Shown: positions 1,969 to 52,529 of the stretch, piece by piece
Layout of the letters: each line of letters opens with the position of its first letter
Numbering within the stretch: position 1 is the stretch's first letter
DNA from: Escherichia phage KIT06
Sequence record: OQ349392.1
Strand: one strand, 5' to 3'
DNA length: 64,000 nt
Made by a program: the position numbers and the translations under genes
The notes under the pieces: model-generated
What the model saw: only the letters and a program-made list of their open reading frames with translations
Told to the model about the DNA's origin: nothing
Database searches by the model: none

Positions 1969-2778
1969 TTAGAAACGAGATGCGACTTTCGCATATACAC
2001 TTACAATATCTTCTGCACCAGGTGCAGTTTTATCTTCTACAGCTTCAGTGACGAAATTCAGTCCGGCTGCTTCAGTATCAGGAGTATTTATACCCTCAGT
2101 AATAGTGCTTTCATCTTTATTAGACTTCTTCACCATTTCTACGATGGCACTCAATTTATTTGAGAATTCATCTGAATAATCCATACCTTCGACCAGAGCA
2201 GAGACTTTTTCTTTTTGAGACTCAGTCAGATCTTTAGTACTTTCGCTCAATGCCACTTCACGCTGCACATAATTGATATATGCGTCGCGCATATTGAGTT
2301 CTTCGAACAGACGAGCTGATTCTTCTTTATGTTCTTGCAGCTCTTCTTCCATTTCAGCCACAACATCAACTGATTCTTCTGGAACAACAACGTTGTGTTC
2401 AACAAAGAGCTCTTTTAATCCACCAAGCATGGATTCAAACAGTTCGGCTTTGATGCCTTTATCAACTGCTAATTTATTTTCAGCGAGCCATTCTTTCGCA
2501 AGATGGTCAATGAATTTAGAAGCTTGCTCAGCGATTTTCTTCTCAGCTTTTTCTTCTGCTTCTTCTTTATTTTTTTCTACTTCTTCTTCTGCTTTTTCAG
2601 CAATTTTAGCGATATGAGATTCAGCTAATTTAACGGCGTGCTGCTTGACGGTAGCTTCGAATACAGTGCCGAAAGTTTCTTTTGCTTCCGGAGAAATATT
2701 AACTGATTCGAAAATACTATCAAGAGCAACGGAAGCATCAATTTTTTGCGCTTCAGCAATCAGTTGTTCTTTAAGCAT
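1969..2778 (-). CDS. 22: prohead core scaffold protein gp22
   Basis: 269-aa ORF, acidic coiled-coil-rich, immediately upstream of gene 23; size and synteny as in T4. Confidence 0.93.
   Translation of the reverse strand: MLKEQLIAEAQKIDASVALDSIFESVNISPEAKETFGTVFEATVKQHAVKLAESHIAKIAEKAEEEVEKNKEEAEEKAEKKIAEQASKFIDHLAKEWLAENKLAVDKGIKAELFESMLGGLKELFVEHNVVVPEESVDVVAEMEEELQEHKEESARLFEELNMRDAYINYVQREVALSESTKDLTESQKEKVSALVEGMDYSDEFSNKLSAIVEMVKKSNKDESTITEGINTPDTEAAGLNFVTEAVEDKTAPGAEDIVSVYAKVASRF
2085..2092 (-). promoter_or_regulatory. candidate late promoter (TATAAATA on minus strand) inside the 3' end of gene 22, possibly serving gene 23
   Basis: Plus strand reads tatttata at 2085-2092; T4 late promoter consensus is TATAAATA; about 135 nt upstream of the gene 23 start. 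Confidence 0.4.
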
Positions 2779-2805
2779 TTTGTAGTCCTGTTGTTTAGAT
2801 AATAA

Positions 2806-2813
2806 TATTTATA
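2806..2813 (-). promoter_or_regulatory. late promoter (TATAAATA) for gene 22
   Basis: Plus strand tatttata at 2806-2813, 28 nt upstream of the gene 22 start codon at 2778. Confidence 0.7.
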
Positions 2814-3447
2814 ACGCTTTTTTCATGGCCTCTGCGAGAGCCATATAGGCGTCATCGGCACTTGTATCGGCTTCCGCCGTCTGTGATTCGGTAATTTCCT
2901 TAGGAGTTACCCATGCATCTGGAGCACTTGGACCCCATACTGCATCAACACCTACAGTTAATTTGAATCCTTCGTTTACGATACGATAACCTTTATTTGT
3001 GTCAGTCAATGAACCTAATCCACGAGAAGAAACTCCTGGAATCCATCCGGCACGAATATTAGCTGCTAATTTATCTCCAGGACCGTGGTCACCTTCAATA
3101 ACACGAGCTCGTCCGTATACGTCATTTCCTTTCCACCACATATCTTCTATAATGATAGCGGCTTGCATCGGGTCAACATTAGCGCGTGGAGGATGATTTA
3201 ATTCTCCGAGAGCTTGTTTTGTTAAAACTTGCTCATTGATATAGTCTTTTACCGCTTTTTCTAATATGCGTTTTGGATAAAGACGTTTATTTCTATTGAC
3301 GACTTCTGCTTGCATGAATATTCCTTCGATGTATAAACCCGGTTTTAAACCTAGGTCTTTTCCATCGTGGGATTCAAGCATTGGCACACCATCAATAATT
3401 TCGCCAGGTTGACCCCAAGTTTCAATTAGTAATTGGGGTTCATTCAT
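2809..3447 (-). CDS. 21: prohead core protease gp21
   Basis: 212-aa ORF; [16 protein letters not shown]...; size and synteny match T4 gp21. Confidence 0.93.
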   Translation of the reverse strand: MNEPQLLIETWGQPGEIIDGVPMLESHDGKDLGLKPGLYIEGIFMQAEVVNRNKRLYPKRILEKAVKDYINEQVLTKQALGELNHPPRANVDPMQAAIIIEDMWWKGNDVYGRARVIEGDHGPGDKLAANIRAGWIPGVSSRGLGSLTDTNKGYRIVNEGFKLTVGVDAVWGPSAPDAWVTPKEITESQTAEADTSADDAYMALAEAMKKAL

Positions 3448-30390: not shown

Positions 30391-30496
30391 TTCTATTATC
30401 TTCCATTCTTTTCTATTGTTTGTTCTAATTGGAATTGAATGGAAGGGACTTAGACCCATTATACCACCAACACTTATAAAGCATTATGAGGAATAT

Positions 30497-31027
30497 ATGT
30501 CGCAAGCACTACAACAAATTTTTAACCAAGCAAATACAACTAACTTTGTAGTATCAATACCACATAGTAATACTACATCTGCTTTTACTTTAAATGCTCA
30601 GTCAGTTCCTATTCCGGGAATTAGGATACCTGTTACTGATACCGTGACTGGGCCGTTTGGACTAGGCCGTGCACAGCGTCCAGGAGTTACATTTGAGTAC
30701 GACCCACTCATTGTGAGATTTATAGTTGATGAAGAGCTTAAGTCATGGATAGGAATGTATGAATGGATGCTAGGAACTAGTAACTATCTTACAGGCGAAA
30801 ATACTGCCCAAAAAACAGGTCCTGAATACATTACGCTTTACATTTTAGATAACAGTAAAACTGAAATCGTGATGTCAATAAATTTTTATAAGCCTTGGGT
30901 TTCTGACCTGTCTGAAGTAGAATTTAGCTACACGGAAGATTCAGACCCAGCTTTAGTATGTACAGCAACGATTCCTTATACGTATTTTCAAGTAGAAAAA
31001 GATGGTAAAATTATAGCAGAAGTTTAA
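30497..31027 (+). CDS. 3: tail completion / sheath stabiliser gp3
   Basis: Track ORF 30416..31027 begins at TTG; first ATG at 30497 (MSQALQQIFNQANTTNFVV...) gives 176 aa, the T4 gp3 length. Confidence 0.88.
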   Translation: MSQALQQIFNQANTTNFVVSIPHSNTTSAFTLNAQSVPIPGIRIPVTDTVTGPFGLGRAQRPGVTFEYDPLIVRFIVDEELKSWIGMYEWMLGTSNYLTGENTAQKTGPEYITLYILDNSKTEIVMSINFYKPWVSDLSEVEFSYTEDSDPALVCTATIPYTYFQVEKDGKIIAEV

Positions 31028-31051
31028 TGCTTCAGTTTTGTGTGTTATAAT
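31028..31051 (+). promoter_or_regulatory. candidate MotA-dependent middle promoter for gene 1
   Basis: MotA-box-like aTGCTTCA at 31028-31034 followed 11 nt later by TATAAT at 31046-31051, upstream of the gene 1 ATG (31077). Confidence 0.5.
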
Positions 31052-31076
31052 CTTAACTAAATTTGAGGAGAAACAT

Positions 31077-31789
31077 ATGAAACTAATCTTTTTAAGTGGT
31101 GTAAAGCGTAGTGGAAAAGATACTACTGCAGATTTTATCATGAATAATTATTCTGCAGTTAAATATCAACTTGCTGGTCCTATTAAGGATGCATTGGCTT
31201 ATGCATGGGGCGTATTTGCAGCAAACACTGACTATCCTTGTTTAACTCGTAAAGAGTTTGAAGGAATTGACTATGATCGCGAGACTAATTTAAATCTGAC
31301 TAAATTAGAAGTAATTACGATTATGGAACAAGCATTTTGCTATCTTAATAGTAAAAGCCCAATTAAAGGTGTGTTTGTTTTTGATGACGCAGTTAATTTC
31401 GTAGCATTTAACAAGATTGCTGACGTTATAAATAATATTGAAGATCAATGGTCAGTCCGTCGTCTGATGCAAGCCCTAGGTACGGATTTGATTGTTAATA
31501 ACTTCGACCGCATGTATTGGGTAAAATTATTTGCTTTAGATTATCTTGATAAATTTAACTCAGGTTATGATTATTATATCGTTCCTGATACTCGTCAAGA
31601 TCATGAAATGGATGCGGCTAGGGCGATGGGTGCTACAGTAATTCATGTAGTTCGTCCTGGTCAAAAATCCAATGATACTCATATTACAGAAGCTGGATTG
31701 CCAATTCGTGATGGTGATTTAGTAATTACAAACGATGGTTCTCTTGAAGAACTTTTTTCTAAAATTAAAAATACACTAAAGGTACTATA

Positions 31790-31790
<1 letters not shown>
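31077..31790 (+). CDS. 1: deoxynucleoside monophosphate kinase
   Basis: Track ORF 31038..31790; ATG at 31077 preceded by GAGGAG; P-loop at the N-terminus (MKLIFLSGVKRSGKDT). Confidence 0.9.
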
Positions 31791-32487
<697 letters not shown>

Positions 32488-32498
32488 TTTCACAAAGT

Positions 32499-32530
32499 TG
32501 TTTACACGCTGATGAGGTAGTGATACTATT
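32499..32530 (+). promoter_or_regulatory. early promoter plus stem-loop module (PeSL-like) upstream of ipI
   Basis: GTTTAC -35 at 32499-32504, gtGATACTAT -10 region, inverted repeat gatgag/ctcatc around the -10. Confidence 0.6.
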
Positions 32531-32559
32531 ATCTCATCAAAATTAATTAGGAAAATAAA

Positions 32560-32847
32560 ATGAAAACTTTCAAAGAATTTACTTCTACAACTATCCCGGT
32601 TTCTACTATTACTGAAGCTACTCTTACTTCTGAAGTTATTAAAGCAAATAAAGGACGAGAAGGTAAACCAATGATTAGTTTGGTTGATGGCGAAGAAATC
32701 AAAGGTACTGTTTACCTAGGTGATGGGTGGTCTGCTAAAAAGGATGGTGCTACAATCATTATCTCTCCTGCTGAAGAAACTGCGTTGTTTAAAGCTAAAC
32801 ACATTTCTGCGGCACATCTCAAGATTATTGCTAAAAATCTTTTGTAA
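32560..32847 (+). CDS. ipI: internal protein I precursor (capsid-targeted; mature IPI* would be 76 aa)
   Basis: 95-aa ORF with capsid targeting sequence MKTFKEFTSTTIPVSTITE followed by ATLTSEVIKANKGREGKPMISLVDGEEIKG... Confidence 0.9.
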   Translation: MKTFKEFTSTTIPVSTITEATLTSEVIKANKGREGKPMISLVDGEEIKGTVYLGDGWSAKKDGATIIISPAEETALFKAKHISAAHLKIIAKNLL

Positions 32848-32865
32848 TAAATATTTCACAAAGTT

Positions 32866-32897
32866 GTTTACATAGGGTTTTAGTTGTGATACTATTA
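32866..32897 (+). promoter_or_regulatory. early promoter plus stem-loop module (PeSL-like)
   Basis: GTTTAC at 32866-32871; gtGATACTAT -10 region; inverted repeat tagggt/accctat. Confidence 0.6.
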
Positions 32898-32923
32898 CCC
32901 TATCAACTACTGAGGAGAATAAA

Positions 32924-33196
32924 ATGAAAACATTTAAAGAATTTATCAATGAAGCTACTTTTAACGAAAAAGTAAAAATTAGCAAAGCTGTCAAGACTAT
33001 GATTGATAACATCAATTACCTATATGGTATTGATTTAACTGACTATGTAACAGTTGGTAACAAACGTAACTATTTCGTGTTTGACATCTCTGAACTTGAC
33101 CAGAATCAAATTAACAACATTGAGCGTTTTGCTAATGATAAGGGTCTTCGTCATGAGTCAGCGGGTTATAAAAAATACGCAATTTATTTAAAATGA
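32924..33196 (+). CDS. internal-protein-like capsid-targeted protein (ip cassette 2)
   Basis: 90-aa ORF starting MKTFKEFINEA (CTS-like), own promoter module, unrelated body sequence. Confidence 0.7.
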   Translation: MKTFKEFINEATFNEKVKISKAVKTMIDNINYLYGIDLTDYVTVGNKRNYFVFDISELDQNQINNIERFANDKGLRHESAGYKKYAIYLK

Positions 33197-33228
33197 GTTT
33201 ACTTTTAAATAGGGTTGTGGTACTATTA
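33197..33228 (+). promoter_or_regulatory. early promoter plus stem-loop module (PeSL-like)
   Basis: GTTTAC at 33197-33202; gtGGTACTAT -10 region; imperfect inverted repeat. Confidence 0.55.
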
Positions 33229-33256
33229 CCTTATCAAAATTAATTAGGAAAATAAA

Positions 33257-33565
33257 ATGAAAACTTACCAAGAATTTATCAATGAAGCGGCTGCACCAAA
33301 GACATTCATTATTTATACTCAAGCGGGTCTTGATGATGAGTATGCGGAAGCAATTCTGAGGTCACTTGCTAAGAACGGCGTTGAAGTAATCGCCTCGGAC
33401 TTTAAGAAAGGGGCTTCCGAGCTGTTTATTTCTATAACTAAAGGATCTAAAGCTAAAATCAAATCATCATTCGGAGTTGCTCGTACCGATCAAATCGACA
33501 ATCATGACTTTAAACAAACTGGTGCTAAACGGCAGAACACAATTGCATCACGCGGAATAAAATAG
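33257..33565 (+). CDS. internal-protein-like capsid-targeted protein (ip cassette 3)
   Basis: 102-aa ORF starting MKTYQEFINEAAAPK (CTS-like). Confidence 0.7.
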   Translation: MKTYQEFINEAAAPKTFIIYTQAGLDDEYAEAILRSLAKNGVEVIASDFKKGASELFISITKGSKAKIKSSFGVARTDQIDNHDFKQTGAKRQNTIASRGIK

Positions 33566-33575
33566 TTTATAAACC

Positions 33576-33607
33576 GTTTACTTTTAGATAGGGTAGTGAT
33601 ATTATTA
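33576..33607 (+). promoter_or_regulatory. early promoter plus stem-loop module (PeSL-like)
   Basis: GTTTAC at 33576-33581; gtGATATTAT -10 region; inverted repeat tagggta/taccctat. Confidence 0.55.
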
Positions 33608-33633
33608 CCCTATCAACTACTGAGGAGAATAAA

Positions 33634-33857
33634 ATGAAAACTTATCAAAAATTTATCGCTGAAGCTAAAAGACATGAAGATGAACTACCAATTGTTACGA
33701 AAACTTTTGATGGTACATTAAGTGATTTTAAAAAATTCCTAGCGATAAACTTTCTAAGTTAACTGGCTCTATTAGTGAAAAGGATGGTAAAGTCACGTTT
33801 TCTGCTCGTGGCACTGCTAATCTTAAAAAGCTTTTGAAAGCTGCTGGAGCGGAATAA
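33634..33857 (+). pseudogene. internal-protein-like cassette 4, frame broken in an A6 run
   Basis: ATG 33634 gives MKTYQKFIAEAKRHEDELPIVTKTFDGTLSDFKKFLAINFLS then stop at 33760; the -1 frame continues from the A-run (33730-33735) as IPSDKLSKLTGSISEKDGKVTFSARGTANLKKLLKAAGAE to 33857. Confidence 0.55.
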
Positions 33858-33860
33858 GTT

Positions 33861-33892
33861 GTTTACTTCTGGGTAGTAGTGTGATACTATTA
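33861..33892 (+). promoter_or_regulatory. early promoter plus stem-loop module (PeSL-like)
   Basis: GTTTAC at 33861-33866; gtGATACTAT; inverted repeat gggtag/taccc. Confidence 0.55.
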
Positions 33893-33918
33893 CCCTATCA
33901 ACTACTGAGGAGAATAAA

Positions 33919-34104
33919 ATGAAACGTTGTGAATTAATTCGAAATGTTGCTATTGCAATTTCTGCTTCCGCTTTTAGTTTTTCAATGTTTGTTGGATTTA
34001 TATGCGGATTATTGACTACAGCAGAAAATGTTTTTTCACTTGTAGTAGCATTTTTAATTGGTTTAATCGCTATTGTTATGGATAAAATTTCTAAAGGTGA
34101 ATAA
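33919..34104 (+). CDS. small two-helix membrane protein
   Basis: 61-aa ORF, two hydrophobic segments, SD gaggagaa upstream. Confidence 0.55.
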   Translation: MKRCELIRNVAIAISASAFSFSMFVGFICGLLTTAENVFSLVVAFLIGLIAIVMDKISKGE

Positions 34105-34509
34105 ATGAATATTAACGAATATTATGTTTATGCTGGGGATTATGCAAATCCTTCTCATTTTGAAGGTAATTTAATACCTGATAGAGTTTTTAATACTCCT
34201 TTTGAAGCGTGGAGTTGGGTTGAAAGTAAAAATGGATTTTCTTATCGTTATGTTGAAGTAACTGATTGGAAAGGAACTAAATATCCTAAAGAGCATTATT
34301 ATGTAGACCCATCTAAAGTAAATTTTCTTTTGTTCGCAGGCGATAATTACTATCCTTGCGGTGGATATGATGATTTGATTGCGTATGCTGAAACAGAAGA
34401 TGAATTACGCCAAATTATTGAAGACAATAAATCAAAACGATTTGGTGATAGTTTTGACTGGTGGCAAATCGTAAATGCCCATACACATACTATTGTTGAT
34501 AAAGGTTAA
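34105..34509 (+). CDS. hypothetical protein
   Basis: 134-aa ORF tightly packed after the previous stop; Tyr/Trp-rich; no family recognised. Confidence 0.6.
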   Translation: MNINEYYVYAGDYANPSHFEGNLIPDRVFNTPFEAWSWVESKNGFSYRYVEVTDWKGTKYPKEHYYVDPSKVNFLLFAGDNYYPCGGYDDLIAYAETEDELRQIIEDNKSKRFGDSFDWWQIVNAHTHTIVDKG

Positions 34510-34511
34510 TA

Positions 34512-34802
34512 ATGATTCTTTATGCGAAAGTATCATCCATTGAAAATGGATATAAATATGATCAAGATGCGGCTAAAGCCTTGATTGATGATTATGGCAT
34601 TTTAACATGTTTTGAAGTTGAAAAGGTTTACATTGACCGTTCATCTTCTCAAGTTAAATTAGTGAAGGAAGACCGTAAATTTAATACAGTAAATTTTGAT
34701 TTCTTTATTGAAACAGAAAAAGGTCCTCTTGAATATGATATTTTCAAGAATCCTTTGGGTCTTGAATGTATTAAATATACTTACATTAATGCAGCGTGGT
34801 GA
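34512..34802 (+). CDS. hypothetical protein
   Basis: 96-aa ORF, tight packing. Confidence 0.55.
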   Translation: MILYAKVSSIENGYKYDQDAAKALIDDYGILTCFEVEKVYIDRSSSQVKLVKEDRKFNTVNFDFFIETEKGPLEYDIFKNPLGLECIKYTYINAAW

Positions 34803-34804
34803 AA

Positions 34805-35320
34805 ATGAATATTTGTTTGGGTACTACAATTCCGCAGGGTTACGTAATTGATGTCACTACCTGGGAAAATGATGGTGACAACTATAAAACCAAAACACTG
34901 TTTGGCGTAGAAGAGCATGAAATCTTACAATTCCAATATCTTTTAAAGAAGTTTAAAAGCCGACATTCTAGTACTAAAATTGAGCACTATTGTGGTAATG
35001 CTTCGTTCAGTGAGCAATCGCTTTTTATCTATGAATACTTGGTTGAAGGACTGTTCTCAGACCAACTTTATCCAGAATTCATTAAAAAGGTCTTTGATAT
35101 AGAAGTTGACCTTGGTAATAAATCTGAAGAAGATGAAGAACGTGTATTTGACTTATTCTTTGTGAATGGTAATAAAGTGCTTGAAGGACTTATTAATATT
35201 TTAGGTAATGCTTCTGAGTATTATGATTATGATTTTTTGCGTGTAGTTGAGAGTGTTAAATACTCTTATATAGAAGAAGAAATTGTTTTGCCGACCGTTA
35301 AAATGTTTAATTTGCTTTAA
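34805..35320 (+). CDS. hypothetical protein
   Basis: Track ORF 34796..35320 (GTG); first ATG at 34805; about 171 aa. Confidence 0.55.
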   Translation: MNICLGTTIPQGYVIDVTTWENDGDNYKTKTLFGVEEHEILQFQYLLKKFKSRHSSTKIEHYCGNASFSEQSLFIYEYLVEGLFSDQLYPEFIKKVFDIEVDLGNKSEEDEERVFDLFFVNGNKVLEGLINILGNASEYYDYDFLRVVESVKYSYIEEEIVLPTVKMFNLL

Positions 35321-35406: not shown

Positions 35407-35479
35407 TGGGAATTAGCCAAGTTGGTAAGGCATAGCACTTTGACTGCTAGATGCAAAGGTTCGAGTCCTTTATTCCCAG
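35407..35479 (+). tRNA. tRNA-Gln (anticodon UUG)
   Basis: Cloverleaf folded by hand: acceptor tgggaat/attccca, anticodon loop ctTTGac, T-arm aaagg-ttcgagt-ccttt. Confidence 0.85.
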
Positions 35480-35480
35480 C

Positions 35481-35567
35481 GCGAGAATGGTCAAATTGGT
35501 AAAGGCACAGCACTTAAAATGCTGCGGAATGATTTCCTTGTGGGTTCGAGTCCCACTTCTCGCACCA
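35481..35567 (+). tRNA. tRNA-Leu (anticodon UAA), type II, CCA encoded
   Basis: Acceptor gcgagaa/ttctcgc, anticodon loop ctTAAaa, long variable arm. Confidence 0.85.
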
Positions 35568-35572
35568 AATTT

Positions 35573-35647
<75 letters not shown>

Positions 35648-35657
35648 ATTTAATTTA

Positions 35658-35731
35658 CTCCGTGTAGCTCAGTTTGGTAGAGCGTCTGCTTTGGGAGCAG
35701 AATGTCGCAGGTTCAAATCCTGCCGCGGAGA
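35658..35731 (+). tRNA. tRNA-Pro (anticodon UGG)
   Basis: Acceptor ctccgtg/cgcggag, anticodon loop ttTGGga, T-loop ttcaaat. Confidence 0.8.
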
Positions 35732-35733
35732 CT

Positions 35734-35823
35734 GGAGGCGTGGCAGAGTGGTTTAATGCACCGGTCTTGAAAACCGGCAGTCGCTCCGGCGACTCATAGG
35801 TTCAAATCCTATCGCCTCCGCCA
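35734..35823 (+). tRNA. tRNA-Ser (anticodon UGA), type II
   Basis: Acceptor ggaggcg/cgcctcc, anticodon loop ctTGAaa, long variable arm. Confidence 0.85.
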
Positions 35824-35828
35824 GTTTT

Positions 35829-35904
35829 GCTGATTTAGCTCAGTAGGTAGAGCAACTCACTTGTAATGAGAAGGTCGGCGGTTCGATTCCGTCAATCAGC
35901 ACCA
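35829..35904 (+). tRNA. tRNA-Thr (anticodon UGU)
   Basis: Acceptor gctgatt/aatcagc, anticodon loop ctTGTaa. Confidence 0.85.
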
Positions 35905-35905
35905 A

Positions 35906-35980
35906 GGCCCTGTAGCTGGAAGGTTCAAGCAAGCGACTCATAATCGCCAGATGGTGGTTCAATTCCACCCAGGGCCACCA
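35906..35980 (+). tRNA. tRNA with anticodon CAU (Ile by lysidine modification as in T4, or Met)
   Basis: Acceptor ggccctg/cagggcc, anticodon loop ctCATaa. Confidence 0.8.
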
Positions 35981-35989
35981 AATTAATTT

Positions 35990-36076
35990 GGGGAGTTATC
36001 CCGTAGAGGTAGCGGTGTGGACTGTAAATCCATTGTCATTGCGACTCGGGTGGTTCGACTCCATCACTCCCCACCA
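35990..36076 (+). tRNA. tRNA-Tyr (anticodon GUA), type II
   Basis: Acceptor ggggagt/actcccc, anticodon stem gtgga/tccat, loop ctGTAaa, long variable arm, T-loop ttcgact. Confidence 0.7.
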
Positions 36077-36080
36077 ATTT

Positions 36081-36155
36081 GGATGTGTAGCTCAATGGCA
36101 GAGCGATCGCCTGTTAAGCGATTGGTTATAGGTTCGAATCCTATCACGTCCGCCA
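36081..36155 (+). tRNA. tRNA-Asn (anticodon GUU)
   Basis: Acceptor ggatgtg/cacgtcc, anticodon stem atcgc/gcgat, loop ctGTTaa, T-loop ttcgaat. Confidence 0.75.
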
Positions 36156-36159
36156 AATC

Positions 36160-36235
36160 CGAGGCATAGCTCAGAAGGAAGAGCAAGGACCTTCTAAGTC
36201 CTAGGTCGTAGGTTCGATCCCTATTGCCTCGACCA
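36160..36235 (+). tRNA. tRNA-Arg (anticodon UCU)
   Basis: Acceptor cgaggca/tgcctcg, anticodon stem aggac/gtcct, loop ctTCTaa. Confidence 0.85.
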
Positions 36236-41117: not shown

Positions 41118-41150
41118 TGTTTACTTTCTCCTAGAACTGTGATAGTATAT
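41118..41150 (+). promoter_or_regulatory. early promoter (GTTTAC ... gtGATAGTATAT)
   Basis: GTTTAC at 41118-41123 and -10 region at 41139-41150, upstream of ORF 41186. Confidence 0.55.
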
Positions 41151-41185
41151 TCATAGTTACTAATTAAAATATTTAAAGGAACCAT

Positions 41186-41503
41186 ATGAAAACGTTTAAA
41201 GAATTTATTGCAGAATCTGCCCAAGGACAACGTGTAGAAGGCGGTTATATCTGGATTGAACAAGTTGAGCCGCCAAGTCGCACTTCTACAGGTAAATGGA
41301 AAATTACTGTTGATGGTCCTGGTGGTAAACGTAGGACTCTTAAAGAAATTAATGGGTACTATGAAGAAGCTCTTTCGGATGCAGGAACTTACATGATGCA
41401 AATCATGATTAAAAACCCTGAAAACCGTTTTGCAGCTAGAGTTTTCCGACGCATCGGTAATAAACTTTATGACGCATACTCTAAAAACTTCCCTAAAGAA
41501 TAA
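41186..41503 (+). CDS. ipII: internal protein precursor, IPII-like
   Basis: 105-aa ORF with CTS MKTFKEFIAESAQ; assignment to ipII is by size and position. Confidence 0.65.
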   Translation: MKTFKEFIAESAQGQRVEGGYIWIEQVEPPSRTSTGKWKITVDGPGGKRRTLKEINGYYEEALSDAGTYMMQIMIKNPENRFAARVFRRIGNKLYDAYSKNFPKE

Positions 41504-41529
41504 CATGAATTAAAACAATAGGAACAAAA

Positions 41530-42108
41530 ATGAAAACGTATCAAGAATTTATTGCTGAAGCTTCTGTAGTAAAGGCCAAAGGCATTAATAAGGACGAGTG
41601 GAACTATCGTGGTGGAAACGGCTTTGACCCTAAAACAGCCCCTATTGAACGATACTTAGCTACAAAAGCTTCCGATTTTAAAGCTTTCGCTTGGGAAGGA
41701 CTTCGCTGGCGTACCGATTTAAATATTGAAGTTGACGGACTTAAATTTGGTCATATTCAAGATGTTGTTGCTAGTAACTTGGACGCAGCTTTTGTTAAAG
41801 CTGACGGTGACCTTCGTCGCTGGAATTTAAAACTATTCTCTAAACAGAAAGGCCCGGTGTTTGTGCCTAAAGCTGGTAAATGGGTTATTGATAATAAATT
41901 AGCTAAGGCTGTCAACTACGCTGGCCTTGAATTCGCCAAGCATAAATCATCATGGAAAGGTCTTGATGCAATGGCCTTCCGTAAAGAATTTGCTGATGTT
42001 ATGGCTAAAGGCGGCTTTAAGGCAGAAATAGATACCTCTAAAGGTACGTTTAAGGACGCTAATGTTCAGTACGCTTATGCCGTTGCTAATGCAGCCCGTG
42101 GTAATTAA
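41530..42108 (+). CDS. ipIII: internal protein precursor, IPIII-like
   Basis: 192-aa ORF with CTS MKTYQEFIAEAS; assignment to ipIII is by size and position. Confidence 0.65.
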   Translation: MKTYQEFIAEASVVKAKGINKDEWNYRGGNGFDPKTAPIERYLATKASDFKAFAWEGLRWRTDLNIEVDGLKFGHIQDVVASNLDAAFVKADGDLRRWNLKLFSKQKGPVFVPKAGKWVIDNKLAKAVNYAGLEFAKHKSSWKGLDAMAFRKEFADVMAKGGFKAEIDTSKGTFKDANVQYAYAVANAARGN

Positions 42109-52463: not shown

Positions 52464-52495
52464 GTTTACAGTAGGGTAGTAGTGTGATACTATTA
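52464..52495 (+). promoter_or_regulatory. early promoter plus stem-loop module (PeSL-like)
   Basis: GTTTAC at 52464-52469; gtGATACTAT; inverted repeat gtagggtag/taccctat. Confidence 0.6.
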
Positions 52496-52529
52496 CCCTA
52501 TCAAAACAAATGTGAAATTGGAGAATAAA

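What the first reader, a model, noticed from the sequence alone, without database searches (positions are those of the whole stretch)
32488..33900. Expanded internal-protein cassette locus: ipI plus three further capsid-targeting-sequence genes, each behind its own promoter/stem-loop module
Four consecutive small genes all start with the CTS-like N-terminus MKT(F/Y)(K/Q)EF(I/T) that targets T4 internal proteins to the prohead and is cleaved by the gp21 protease, but their bodies are unrelated. The first is IPI itself, whose processed form IPI* is a known inhibitor of the host GmrS/GmrD restriction system. Each is preceded by a near-identical 60-70-bp module (GTTTAC, gtGATACTAT, inverted repeat). 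This is the hypervariable ip locus architecture described for T-even phages; the extra cassettes are candidate injected anti-defence proteins of unknown target.
Basis: partly seen in the sequence, partly recalled or inferred. Interest (0 to 1): 0.6.

Follow-up and report, generated by a model that had tools for sequence, protein, structure and literature searches.

The report
T4-type internal-protein gene cassette locus
This is the well-described variable "internal protein" locus of a T4-like coliphage, carrying the known restriction-enzyme inhibitor IPI plus the catalogued genes ip9, ip7 and a frameshifted ip8, so it is a correct reading of a known feature, not a discovery.

Summary
Window 32488-33918 lies between gene 57B (Acb1) and tRNA.4 of a Tequatrovirus, 99.6% identical to phage EP01. 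It holds four consecutive + strand genes that begin MKT(F/Y)(K/Q)(E/K)F and carry an I-x-E gp21 cleavage motif.

- **Gene 1** is IPI: 75/76 identical to the solved IPI* structure 2JUB.
- **Genes 2-4** are the catalogued Ip9, Ip7 and Ip8, first named in phage RB15 in 1994.
- **Bodies:** mutually unrelated; the mature forms are small and basic.
- **Spacers:** each 60-76 nt spacer holds a T4 early promoter, a hairpin across the -10 box, and a ribosome-binding site.

- ip8 is broken by a 1-nt deletion in an A7 run, giving 42 aa instead of 74.
- A fifth module precedes tRNA.4, which has no targeting sequence.
- The modules are 61-91% identical and fall into two subtypes.

Comparison with other phages places the insertion/deletion junctions inside the module plus the targeting-sequence codons, which fits cassette shuffling by homologous recombination.

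The targets of Ip7, Ip8 and Ip9 remain unknown. An Ip9 structure model gave no informative match. The architecture has been published, and the same gene set is annotated in GenBank. Novelty: already known. Interest is low.

The parts
32032..32487 (+). Gene 57B = Acb1 anti-CBASS phosphodiesterase; left border of the IP locus (context)
   Evidence: Pfam PF23474 Acb1, E = 7.8e-60; annotated 57B in RB32
32488..32559 (+). Module 1: early promoter (-35 GTTTAC 32500-32505; extended -10 TGATACTAT 32521-32529), hairpin 32510-32539, SD AGGAAA
   Evidence: RNA fold -14.8 kcal/mol, z = -4.1
32560..32847 (+). ipI, 95 aa: 19-aa propeptide ending ITE19, then the 76-aa IPI* GmrS/GmrD inhibitor
   Evidence: Pfam IPI_T4 2e-53; 75/76 identical to PDB 2JUB
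32848..32923 (+). Module 2: early promoter (GTTTAC 32866-32871, TACTAT 32890-32895), hairpin 32872-32903, SD GAGGAG; left copy of the direct repeat that flanks the ip9-ip7-ip8 block
   Evidence: -14.2 kcal/mol; junction with T4-type phage G50 at 32929
32924..33196 (+). ip9-type internal protein, 90 aa; CTS MKTFKEFINE|A; mature 80 aa, pI 8.9
   Evidence: phrog_7673 3.6e-54; 87% identical to RB15 Ip9; AF2 model pLDDT 86
33197..33256 (+). Module 3: early promoter (GTTTAC 33197-33202, TACTAT 33221-33226), weak hairpin 33209-33234, SD AGGAAA
   Evidence: -6.2 kcal/mol, z = -0.2
33257..33565 (+). ip7-type internal protein, 102 aa; CTS MKTYQEFINE|A; mature 92 aa, pI 9.7; folded core plus a conserved, predicted-disordered basic tail
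   Evidence: phrog_2667 6.7e-41; RB15/RB32 Ip7; AF2 pLDDT 64, residues 73-102 below 50
33566..33633 (+). Module 4: early promoter (GTTTAC 33576-33581, TATTAT 33600-33605), hairpin 33587-33614, SD GAGGAG
   Evidence: -16.4 kcal/mol, z = -4.5
33634..33858 (+). ip8-type internal protein gene, frameshifted. A6 at 33724-33729 instead of A7, so the ORF as it stands ends at 33762 (42 aa); the intact relatives encode 74 aa ending at the position of 33858
   Evidence: alignments; translations; phrog_8765 hit limited to residues 1-34
33859..33918 (+). Module 5: early promoter (GTTTAC 33861-33866, TACTAT 33885-33890), hairpin 33871-33895, SD GAGGAG; right copy of the direct repeat; precedes a non-CTS gene
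   Evidence: -14.0 kcal/mol; junction with G50 at 33856
33919..34104 (+). tRNA.4, 61-aa predicted membrane protein without a CTS; right border of the IP locus
   Evidence: phrog_1692 6e-35; annotated tRNA.4 in RB32 and UFV-AREG1
2809..3447 (-). gp21 prohead protease, the enzyme expected to remove the CTS (trans-acting partner in the same window)
   Evidence: Pfam Peptidase_S77, E = 1.5e-111
1969..2778 (-). gp22 scaffolding core protein. CTS propeptides have affinity for the prohead core, of which gp22 is the scaffold
   Evidence: Pfam T4_CASP, E = 9.1e-90; role of the core from PMC9026906

Best explanation
This is the 57B-tRNA internal-protein (IP) locus of a Tequatrovirus, in the configuration ipI-ip9-ip7-ip8, with ip8 frameshifted.

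**Expression.** Each gene is a self-contained cassette. Its spacer carries a T4-type early promoter (GTTTAC, 17-nt spacer, extended -10 TGnTAYTAT) and a Shine-Dalgarno site. A hairpin has the -10 box in its loop. A transcript that starts at the cassette's own promoter lacks the 5' arm, so only read-through RNA from upstream can form the hairpin. The hairpin would therefore attenuate or stabilise the 3' end of upstream transcripts (inferred).

**Delivery.** The first 10 residues (19 in IPI) are a capsid targeting sequence. It takes the protein into the prohead core. The phage's gp21 protease cuts after the Glu of I-x-E. The small basic mature protein (64-92 aa, pI 8.9-9.7) stays with the packaged DNA and is injected with it. 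This is inferred from T4 IPIII and IPI and is not shown for these genes.

**Function.** IPI* blocks the GmrS/GmrD type IV restriction enzyme that attacks glucosyl-hmC DNA; this is established for the T4 protein, which is 99% identical. By analogy with Ip1, Ip2 and Ip3, Ip9, Ip7 and Ip8 most likely each neutralise another host nuclease or defence variant. Their targets are unknown.

**Evolution.** The ~100 nt conserved block of promoter, hairpin, SD and CTS codons serves as portable homology. Recombination within it inserts, deletes and swaps cassettes between phages.
For: **Identity of the genes**
- IPI: Pfam 2e-53 and 75/76 identity to 2JUB.
- The same four-gene set is annotated in UFV-AREG1 as ipI plus internal head/virion proteins.

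**Targeting and processing**
- All four proteins have a CTS and an I-x-E|A site.
- Published rules: gp21 cuts after L/I-X-E; the first 10 residues of IPIII suffice for targeting; residues 4 and 7 drive targeting; residues 8 and 10 drive processing (PMC9026906).
- The window encodes the gp21 protease and gp22 scaffold.

**Promoter and hairpin**
- The promoter consensus occurs 15 times against 0.08 expected. It fits the published T-even consensus TTTACW-N17-TAYWAT (PMC4122927).
- Across phages, ip-locus modules other than the ip7-upstream ones fold at -10 to -17 kcal/mol. Other early promoters in the window fold at -2 to -8, with one exception.
- Two of 9 stem pairs change compensatorily. 90.5% of cells pair, against 32-67% when the 3' arm is slid.

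**Cassette junctions**
- T4-type phage G50 (ipI then tRNA.4) aligns to window 32000-32929 and 33856-34600.
- The ~926 bp ip9-ip7-ip8 block therefore sits between two 91%-identical module copies.
- RB32 junctions fall at 32593, 32853, 33639 and 33881, that is in module plus CTS codons.

**Other combinations in other phages**

**Function by analogy**
- Ip1, Ip2 and Ip3 each inhibit a distinct GmrSD (PMC12373910).
Against: - No data accessible here show that Ip9, Ip7 or Ip8 are in virions, are cleaved, or inhibit anything.
- No hairpin is followed by a T-run, and the terminator scan found nothing. A terminator role is therefore unproven.
- The hairpin upstream of ip7 is weak.
- No late-promoter consensus TATAAATA lies on the + strand between 31434 and 34551. 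How synthesis continues until prohead assembly therefore rests on read-through, or on knowledge from T4.
- ip8 as sequenced cannot make the full-length protein.
Confidence: 0.85

Rival explanations
1. Ip9, Ip7 and Ip8 are packaged, but they are generic basic DNA-associated proteins for charge neutralisation or DNA packing. They have no specific host target.
For: - All mature forms are small and basic, pI 8.9-9.7.
- A review reports that lysines of internal proteins contact DNA phosphates in the T4 head (PMC3012670).
- No recognisable domain or informative fold match was found.
Against: - The bodies are mutually unrelated, and presence or absence varies between very close phages. This fits arms-race turnover better than a packing role.
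- All three T4 IPs that have been tested turned out to be specific GmrSD inhibitors.
- The Ip9 body also exists without a CTS in a Guernseyvirinae phage and as a domain of an 849-aa Agtrevirus protein. The domain therefore has a function independent of a T4 head.
Confidence: 0.12
2. The CTS-like N-termini persist only because their codons are part of the recombination and translation-initiation module. The products are ordinary early cytoplasmic proteins that are not packaged.
For: - The DNA repeat runs through the first ~11 codons (families D1 and D3).
- Locus junctions fall in those codons.
- The promoters are of the early type, and there is no local late promoter.
Against: - tRNA.4 shares the module up to the ATG but has no CTS, so the CTS is not forced by the module.
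- The residues known to matter are kept despite synonymous and other changes: aromatic at position 4, Phe at 7, Ile at 8, Glu at 10.
- IPI, in the same kind of cassette, is an established packaged protein.
Confidence: 0.04
3. The ip8 frameshift is a homopolymer miscall in the assembly and not a property of the phage. The real phage would then carry four intact cassettes.
For: - The change is a single missing A in an A7 run.
- The only two database records with this allele, EP01 and vB_SsoM_113, both have A7.
- No public assembly encodes the 42-aa product.
- Everything downstream of the shift is otherwise intact in the alternative frame.
Against: - It is one of only five small indels in ~22 kb aligned to EP01. 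It is the only one that shifts a reading frame; the others are an in-frame 12-nt deletion in gene 1, a 1-nt difference at the tRNA.4 stop, and two intergenic changes. The assembly is therefore not riddled with homopolymer errors.
- The same A7-to-A6 change is present in a different ip8 allele in phage ZCEC14. The tract may be a true slippage hot spot.
Confidence: 0.4

Closest known systems
[not shown]
   Same: - Same position, between 57B and tRNA.4.
- Same conserved leader, and same ~70 bp early promoter with an overlapping inverted repeat on each side of each ORF.
- Same ip9-ip7-ip8 run, ~90% DNA identity over 1.1 kb.
   Different: - The first cassette is ipI instead of ip5.
- ip8 carries a 1-nt deletion.
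- The paper itself could not be opened here. Its content is taken from citing papers and from my memory of its abstract.
Escherichia phages EP01 (OM135583) and UFV-AREG1 (NC_031030)
   Same: Identical gene order 57B-ipI-ip9-ip7-ip8-tRNA.4 at 99.6% and 94% DNA identity. UFV-AREG1 is annotated as ipI plus internal head/virion proteins.
   Different: - Both have an intact 74-aa Ip8.
- Downstream of tRNA.4, EP01 differs from the window.
T4 IPI / IPI* (PDB 2JUB; Pfam PF11634), inhibitor of the GmrS/GmrD type IV restriction enzyme
   Same: The mature 76 residues are 75/76 identical, and cleavage after Glu19 gives the same N-terminus, ATLTSE.
   Different: One substitution, V47I in mature numbering. 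Activity was not tested here.
PeSL (promoter-early stem-loop) mobile regulatory cassettes of T4-like phages (Arbiol 2010, PMC2839356; Comeau 2014, PMC4122927)
   Same: - Composite of promoter, stem-loop and SD in intergenic spacers of hyperplastic regions.
- The stem-loop lies between the -35 and -10 boxes or overlaps the -10.
- The cassettes coincide with indel junctions between related phages.
   Different: Arbiol et al. call the T-even IP-locus elements analogues of RB49/phi1 PeSLs, not homologues. They are based on T4 early promoters and have weaker, AT-richer stems without polyG/polyC. That matches what is seen here: GATAGGGTA/TACCCTATC stems and no T-run.
T4 Ip2 and Ip3 (Silas et al. 2025, PMC12373910)
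   Same: Injected proteins with a CTS. Each blocks one GmrSD subtype. The window's second IP locus at 41186-42108 carries an IpIII homologue.
   Different: The bodies of Ip9, Ip7 and Ip8 share no detectable similarity with Ip2-like or IpIII proteins. No target is known for them.

Membership tests
T4-type internal proteins (CTS-bearing, gp21-processed) | N-terminal ~10-residue capsid targeting sequence resembling MKTYQEFIAE, with an aromatic at position 4 and Phe at position 7 | tested here: met
   All four ORFs start MKT(F/Y)(K/Q)(E/K)F. The residue roles are from PMC9026906.
T4-type internal proteins (CTS-bearing, gp21-processed) | gp21 cleavage motif L/I-X-E at the end of the propeptide | tested here: met
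   ITE19|A, INE10|A, INE10|A and IAE10|A.
T4-type internal proteins (CTS-bearing, gp21-processed) | The phage encodes the gp21 prohead protease and the gp22 scaffolding core | tested here: met
   Peptidase_S77 at 1.5e-111 and T4_CASP at 9.1e-90 in window 1969-3447, - strand.
T4-type internal proteins (CTS-bearing, gp21-processed) | The gene lies in one of the two polymorphic IP loci (57B-tRNA.4, or next to e) | tested here: met
   Flanked by 57B/Acb1 and tRNA.4.
T4-type internal proteins (CTS-bearing, gp21-processed) | The mature protein is physically present in the virion and is injected with the DNA | not testable with these tools
   No proteomic data for Ip9, Ip7 or Ip8 were found. A Klebsiella T4-like virion MS study lists only generic "internal virion proteins", whose gene numbers adjoin a lysozyme-annotated gene.
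IPI (Pfam PF11634, GmrS/GmrD inhibitor) | Sequence match above the family's gathering score and to the solved IPI* structure | tested here: met
   178.7 bits against a cutoff of 25; 75/76 identical to 2JUB_A.
IPI (Pfam PF11634, GmrS/GmrD inhibitor) | Inhibits GmrS/GmrD restriction of glucosyl-hmC DNA | not testable with these tools
   Inferred from 99% identity to the T4 protein, for which this is documented.
Ip9 / Ip7 / Ip8 families (RB15 nomenclature; phrog_7673, phrog_2667, phrog_8765) | Full-length similarity to the named RB15/RB32 proteins | tested here: met
   - Ip9: 87% identity to RB15 Ip9 over 90 aa.
- Ip7: covers phrog_2667 positions 1-101 of 101.
- Ip8: similarity to phrog_8765 stops at residue 34 because of the frameshift. 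With one A restored, the protein is identical to the 74-aa EP01 Ip8, which aligns full-length with RB15 Ip8.
IP-locus promoter/stem-loop cassette (PeSL-like) | Early promoter fitting TTTACW-N17-TAYWAT in the intergenic spacer, followed by an SD and the ATG | tested here: met
   Five of five spacers. The consensus is from PMC4122927.
IP-locus promoter/stem-loop cassette (PeSL-like) | Stem-loop overlapping the promoter | tested here: met
   Four of five hairpins fold at -14 to -16.4 kcal/mol with z from -2.5 to -4.5; the fifth is weak. Two stem pairs change compensatorily.
IP-locus promoter/stem-loop cassette (PeSL-like) | Coincides with insertion, deletion or replacement junctions between related genomes | tested here: met
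   Junctions with G50, RB32 and RB15 fall in the modules and CTS codons.
IP-locus promoter/stem-loop cassette (PeSL-like) | Demonstrated promoter and terminator/attenuator activity | not testable with these tools
   Shown experimentally only for RB49/phi1 PeSLs. Here there is no T-run and the terminator scan found nothing.

The most novel reading that the evidence does not exclude
Ip9, Ip7 and Ip8 are each specific inhibitors of distinct host defence nucleases that have not yet been matched to them, for example further GmrSD/BrxU subtypes. The Ip9 body would then be a portable anti-defence domain that unrelated phages deploy in different ways:
- with a CTS in T4-likes
- as a free small protein in Guernseyvirinae
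- as the C-terminal domain of an ~850-aa Ackermannviridae protein

In addition, the A7 tract in ip8 would be a genuine slippage hot spot that switches this cassette off and on.
Probability: 0.3. Interest if true: 0.5.

Novelty: already known. Interest (0 to 1): 0.18.

Why it matters
The locus is a textbook example of how T-even phages diversify injected counter-defence proteins by cassette exchange. Calling it correctly has annotation value, because EP01 lists all of these genes as "hypothetical".

The open question, beyond this window, is what Ip9, Ip7 and Ip8 target. Only Ip1, Ip2 and Ip3 have known targets, and all three are GmrSD variants. A phage carrying ipI plus three further cassettes, and two more CTS proteins at the second locus, is a convenient natural panel for such screens.

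Nothing in the sequence itself is unexpected to a T4 specialist.

Tried and rejected
- **Function from sequence.** Pfam gave no family for Ip9, Ip7 or Ip8.
- **Homologue searches.** Word-indexed searches returned only 17 and 14 close relatives, all T4-like IPs. A full HMMER scan of 1.84 billion representatives with Ip9 found only 12 clusters.
- **Function from structure.**
  - The Foldseek search against BFVD gave one match at E <= 0.001, to an unnamed 535-aa protein.
  - The Ip7 model was too weak (pLDDT 64) to search.
- **Known RNA family for the hairpins.** Rfam gave no match at E <= 1.
- **Canonical terminators.** None were found.
- **Local late promoters.** There is no TATAAATA on the + strand inside the locus.
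- **Frequency of the A6 ip8 allele.**
  - Exact-pattern scans of IMG/VR hit only unrelated sequences for A6, and one true ip8 for A7.
  - The 42-aa product is not on record.
  - I first read (107 of 107 records with >= 80% cover) as "all intact". I withdrew that, because the tool joins tblastn pieces, and ZCEC14 proved to be frameshifted.
- **Literature.** A search for Ip7, Ip8 and Ip9 by name returned only unrelated papers. Repoila 1994 is not held.
- **Rejected idea.** The repeated module is not ip-specific. It also precedes tRNA.4, and a near-copy lies at 52464.
Full report
**What is there**

The window is a Tequatrovirus (T4-like coliphage) genome segment. On the + strand the gene order around the finding is as follows:

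| Coordinates | Gene |
|---|---|
| 30416-31027 | gp3 |
| 31038-31790 | gp1 dNMP kinase |
| 31790-32032 | 57A |
| 32032-32487 | 57B = Acb1 (Pfam PF23474, 7.8e-60) |
| 32560-33858 | four small genes |
| 33919-34104 | tRNA.4 |
| 34105-34802 | tRNA.3 and tRNA.2 |
| 34796-35320 | an RB32ORF135c-like ORF |
| 35407-36235 | a ten-gene tRNA cluster |

A megablast of 32400-34150 against 50,697 phage records matched 815 records. The best was Escherichia phage EP01, at 99.6% over 98% of the query. Only five records cover at least 80% of the query.

**Check of the observation**

The four ORFs at 32560-32847, 32924-33196, 33257-33565 and 33634-33762 begin MKTFKEF, MKTFKEF, MKTYQEF and MKTYQKF. A six-frame scan of the whole window finds this motif only six times, always at an ORF start on the + strand. 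The other two lie in a second IP locus at 41186-42108.

Each of the four proteins has an I-x-E site followed by Ala: ITE19, INE10, INE10 and IAE10. The published gp21 specificity is L/I-X-E. In IPIII, residues 4 and 7 of the leader drive targeting, and residues 8 and 10 drive processing (PMC9026906).

After removal of the leader the bodies show no pairwise similarity (best blastp E = 0.3). The mature products are 64-92 aa with pI 8.9-9.7.

The spacers are 60-76 nt and are filled by a repeated module. Each module has three parts:
- GTTTAC, then 15 nt, then TGNTAYTAT
- an inverted repeat whose loop contains the -10 box
- GAGGAG or AGGAAA followed by AATAAAATG

The promoter pattern occurs 15 times in 64 kb, all on the + strand, against 0.08 expected. 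Five of those lie here. The hairpins fold at -14.8, -14.2, -6.2, -16.4 and -14.0 kcal/mol. Four of the five have z-scores from -2.5 to -4.5.

1. *The fourth gene is broken.* The window has A6 at 33724-33729, where EP01, UFV-AREG1, RB15 and F13076 have A7.
   - The frame ends at 33762 after 42 aa, instead of 74 aa ending at 33858.
   - Restoring one A gives a protein identical to EP01 Ip8.
2. *There are five modules.* The fifth precedes tRNA.4, a 61-aa membrane protein with no targeting sequence.
3. *The modules are 61-91% identical and fall into two subtypes.* One ends in AAAATTAATTAGGAAAATAAAATG (upstream of ipI and ip7). The other ends in CAACTACTGAGGAGAATAAAATG (upstream of ip9, ip8 and tRNA.4).

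**Identity of the genes**

- *Gene 1 is IPI.* It matches Pfam IPI_T4 at E = 2e-53 over residues 20-95. It is 75/76 identical to the solved IPI* chain 2JUB_A, starting exactly after Glu19.
- RefSeq annotates the same four genes in UFV-AREG1 as ipI plus internal head/virion proteins.
- By tblastn, Ip9 occurs in 182 phage records, Ip7 in 283 and Ip8 in 107.
- The window also encodes the trans-acting machinery: gp21 protease (Peptidase_S77, 1.5e-111), gp22 scaffold and gp67.

**How the cassettes are exchanged**

Local alignments show the following.
- The T4-type phage G50 has ipI directly followed by tRNA.4. It matches window 32000-32929 (98.9%) and 33856-34600 (98.5%).
- The ~926 bp block carrying ip9-ip7-ip8 is therefore bracketed by two module copies, 32861-32929 and 33856-33924, that are 91% identical.
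- RB32 (ip5-ip9-ip7) matches 32020-32593, 32853-33639 and 33881-34597. Its junctions sit in the module and the first ~11 codons.

Other configurations were seen:
- RB15: ip5-ip9-ip7-ip8
- F13076: ip9-ip7-ip8
- ZCEC14: ip7-ip8
- a 170-kb IMG/VR contig: 57B-ip8-ip9

This is the signature of homologous recombination in the conserved 5' block.

The hairpin is an added feature and not a by-product of the promoter. Other early promoters in the window fold at only -2 to -8 kcal/mol, except one at 52464. Across 14 distinct module sequences, 2 of 9 stem pairs change on both sides. 90.5% of cells pair, against 32-67% when the 3' arm is slid. This is modest support from a small, related sample.

In several phages the modules upstream of ip7 combine the 5' arm of one type with the 3' arm of another, which breaks the hairpin. 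That would be expected from crossovers inside the loop.

**Mechanism, and how far it is shown**

*Shown by sequence:*
- cassette anatomy
- leader and cleavage motif
- IPI identity
- presence of the protease and scaffold genes
- junction positions

*Established in the literature for T4, and transferred by homology:*
- CTS-dependent packaging and gp21 processing
- IPI* inhibition of GmrS/GmrD

*Inferred:*
- Ip9, Ip7 and Ip8 are packaged and injected. They act against other defence variants, by analogy with Ip1, Ip2 and Ip3, each of which blocks a distinct GmrSD (PMC12373910).
- The hairpins attenuate or stabilise read-through transcripts. A transcript starting ~7 nt after the -10 lacks the 5' arm. 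There is no T-run, and the scan found no canonical terminator.
- Late supply may depend on read-through from upstream. The nearest + strand TATAAATA is at 31427 in gene 1, and none lies inside the locus.

**Attempts to find a function for the extra cassettes**

- Pfam gave nothing.
- Large protein searches returned only T4-like IPs and a small family of 12 clusters.
- AlphaFold2 gave a confident Ip9 model (pLDDT 86). It has two helices, then a beta-beta-alpha-beta-beta unit.
- The Ip7 model was weaker (pLDDT 64). It has a folded core at 15-71 and a conserved, predicted-disordered basic tail at 73-102.
- Foldseek against BFVD gave one match at E <= 0.001, to an unnamed 535-aa protein.
- The targets therefore remain unknown.

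**Comparison with what is known**

- Silas et al. 2025 cite Repoila et al. [quoted passage not shown]
- Arbiol et al. 2010 cite the same paper for PeSL-like elements at the two highly variable IP loci. These elements are built on T4 early promoters with AT-rich stem-loops, and may be responsible for the plasticity of those loci.
- Comeau et al. [quoted passage not shown]
- The ~70 bp size of the element, and its position on both sides of most ORFs, rest on my memory of the 1994 abstract. The paper itself could not be opened.
- Arbiol et al. explicitly call these elements analogues of PeSLs.
- The exact gene order is in GenBank for EP01 and UFV-AREG1.
- The finding is therefore a correct recognition of a known system.

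**Verdict**

Novelty: already known. Interest: 0.18.

The residual interest lies in three things:
- the unknown targets of Ip9, Ip7 and Ip8
- the occurrence of the Ip9 domain outside T4-like phages
- the recurrent A-tract frameshift in ip8

Noticed in passing
window 33724-33729; L011 (phage ZCEC14) 838-1061: The same A7-to-A6 frameshift in ip8 occurs in the window and, independently, in a different ip8 allele of phage ZCEC14. The only two database records with the window's allele (EP01, vB_SsoM_113) have A7. This is either a slippage hot spot or a recurrent homopolymer miscall. A -1 ribosomal slip on AAAAAA would restore the exact wild-type reading frame.
   Followed up: partly
window 32924-33196; L005 2480-2725; L006 212-2761: The Ip9 body is not confined to T4-like phages.
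- A homologue without a CTS (47% identical) stands alone in a Guernseyvirinae Klebsiella phage.
- A 33%-identical copy forms the C-terminal domain (residues 764-846) of an 849-aa protein of unknown function (phrog_3867) in Agtrevirus SW16-7.
- An 861-aa relative carries the domain at residues 661-735.
   Followed up: partly
window 41119-42108 (+): There is a second internal-protein locus just after the lysozyme gene e. It has an early promoter at 41119, a 105-aa CTS protein (MKTFKEFIAE|S; phrog_3966, unknown function) and a 192-aa IpIII homologue (phrog_5341). With these, the phage carries six CTS genes in this window.
   Followed up: partly
window 32032-32487 (+): Gene 57B, immediately upstream of ipI, is the anti-CBASS phosphodiesterase Acb1 (Pfam 7.8e-60). 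Many records still annotate it as RNA ligase or as hypothetical. With it, the ip cassettes form a contiguous counter-defence neighbourhood.
   Followed up: no
P0017 (phage OLB35 'ip7', 77 aa): This is a natural chimera. The N-terminal part is Ip7 (residues ~29-72) and is fused in frame to the C-terminal 35 residues of Ip9. It shows that recombination in this locus also occurs inside the coding bodies.
   Followed up: no
L002 2298, L003 683, L004 1845 (modules upstream of ip7 in UFV-AREG1, RB15, RB32): These modules pair the 5' arm of the ATAGGG hairpin type with the 3' arm of the CTCATC type, so the hairpin is lost (-2.6 to -4.4 kcal/mol). This looks like the scar of a crossover within the -10 loop.
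   Followed up: partly
window 52464-52509 (+): This early promoter has the strongest hairpin in the window (-19.3 kcal/mol). It is nearly identical to the module upstream of tRNA.4, and it precedes an ORF that starts MKTVTINKGIYF. It may mark another cassette-type hyperplastic region.
   Followed up: no
window 31389 (+), gene 1 (dNMP kinase): A 12-nt in-frame deletion relative to EP01 removes four residues of the deoxynucleoside monophosphate kinase.
   Followed up: no
window 32549-32556, 32912-32919, 33622-33629, 33907-33914: Three of the five Shine-Dalgarno regions read GAGGAG. They contain GGAG, which from my own knowledge is the motif cleaved by the T4 RegB endoribonuclease in early mRNAs. 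The other two read AGGAAA. A regB gene is annotated in EP01. This could mean early shut-off differs between cassettes.
   Followed up: no
L007 (phage Av-05, classified Vequintavirinae) 2501-2764: An Ip9 homologue with a CTS (MKTFNEFISE|S) is flanked by hairpin-containing spacers, in a 121-kb record that is not classified among the T4-like phages. The neighbouring annotations (HNH endonucleases, Lar-like protein, nudix hydrolase) were not examined.
   Followed up: no
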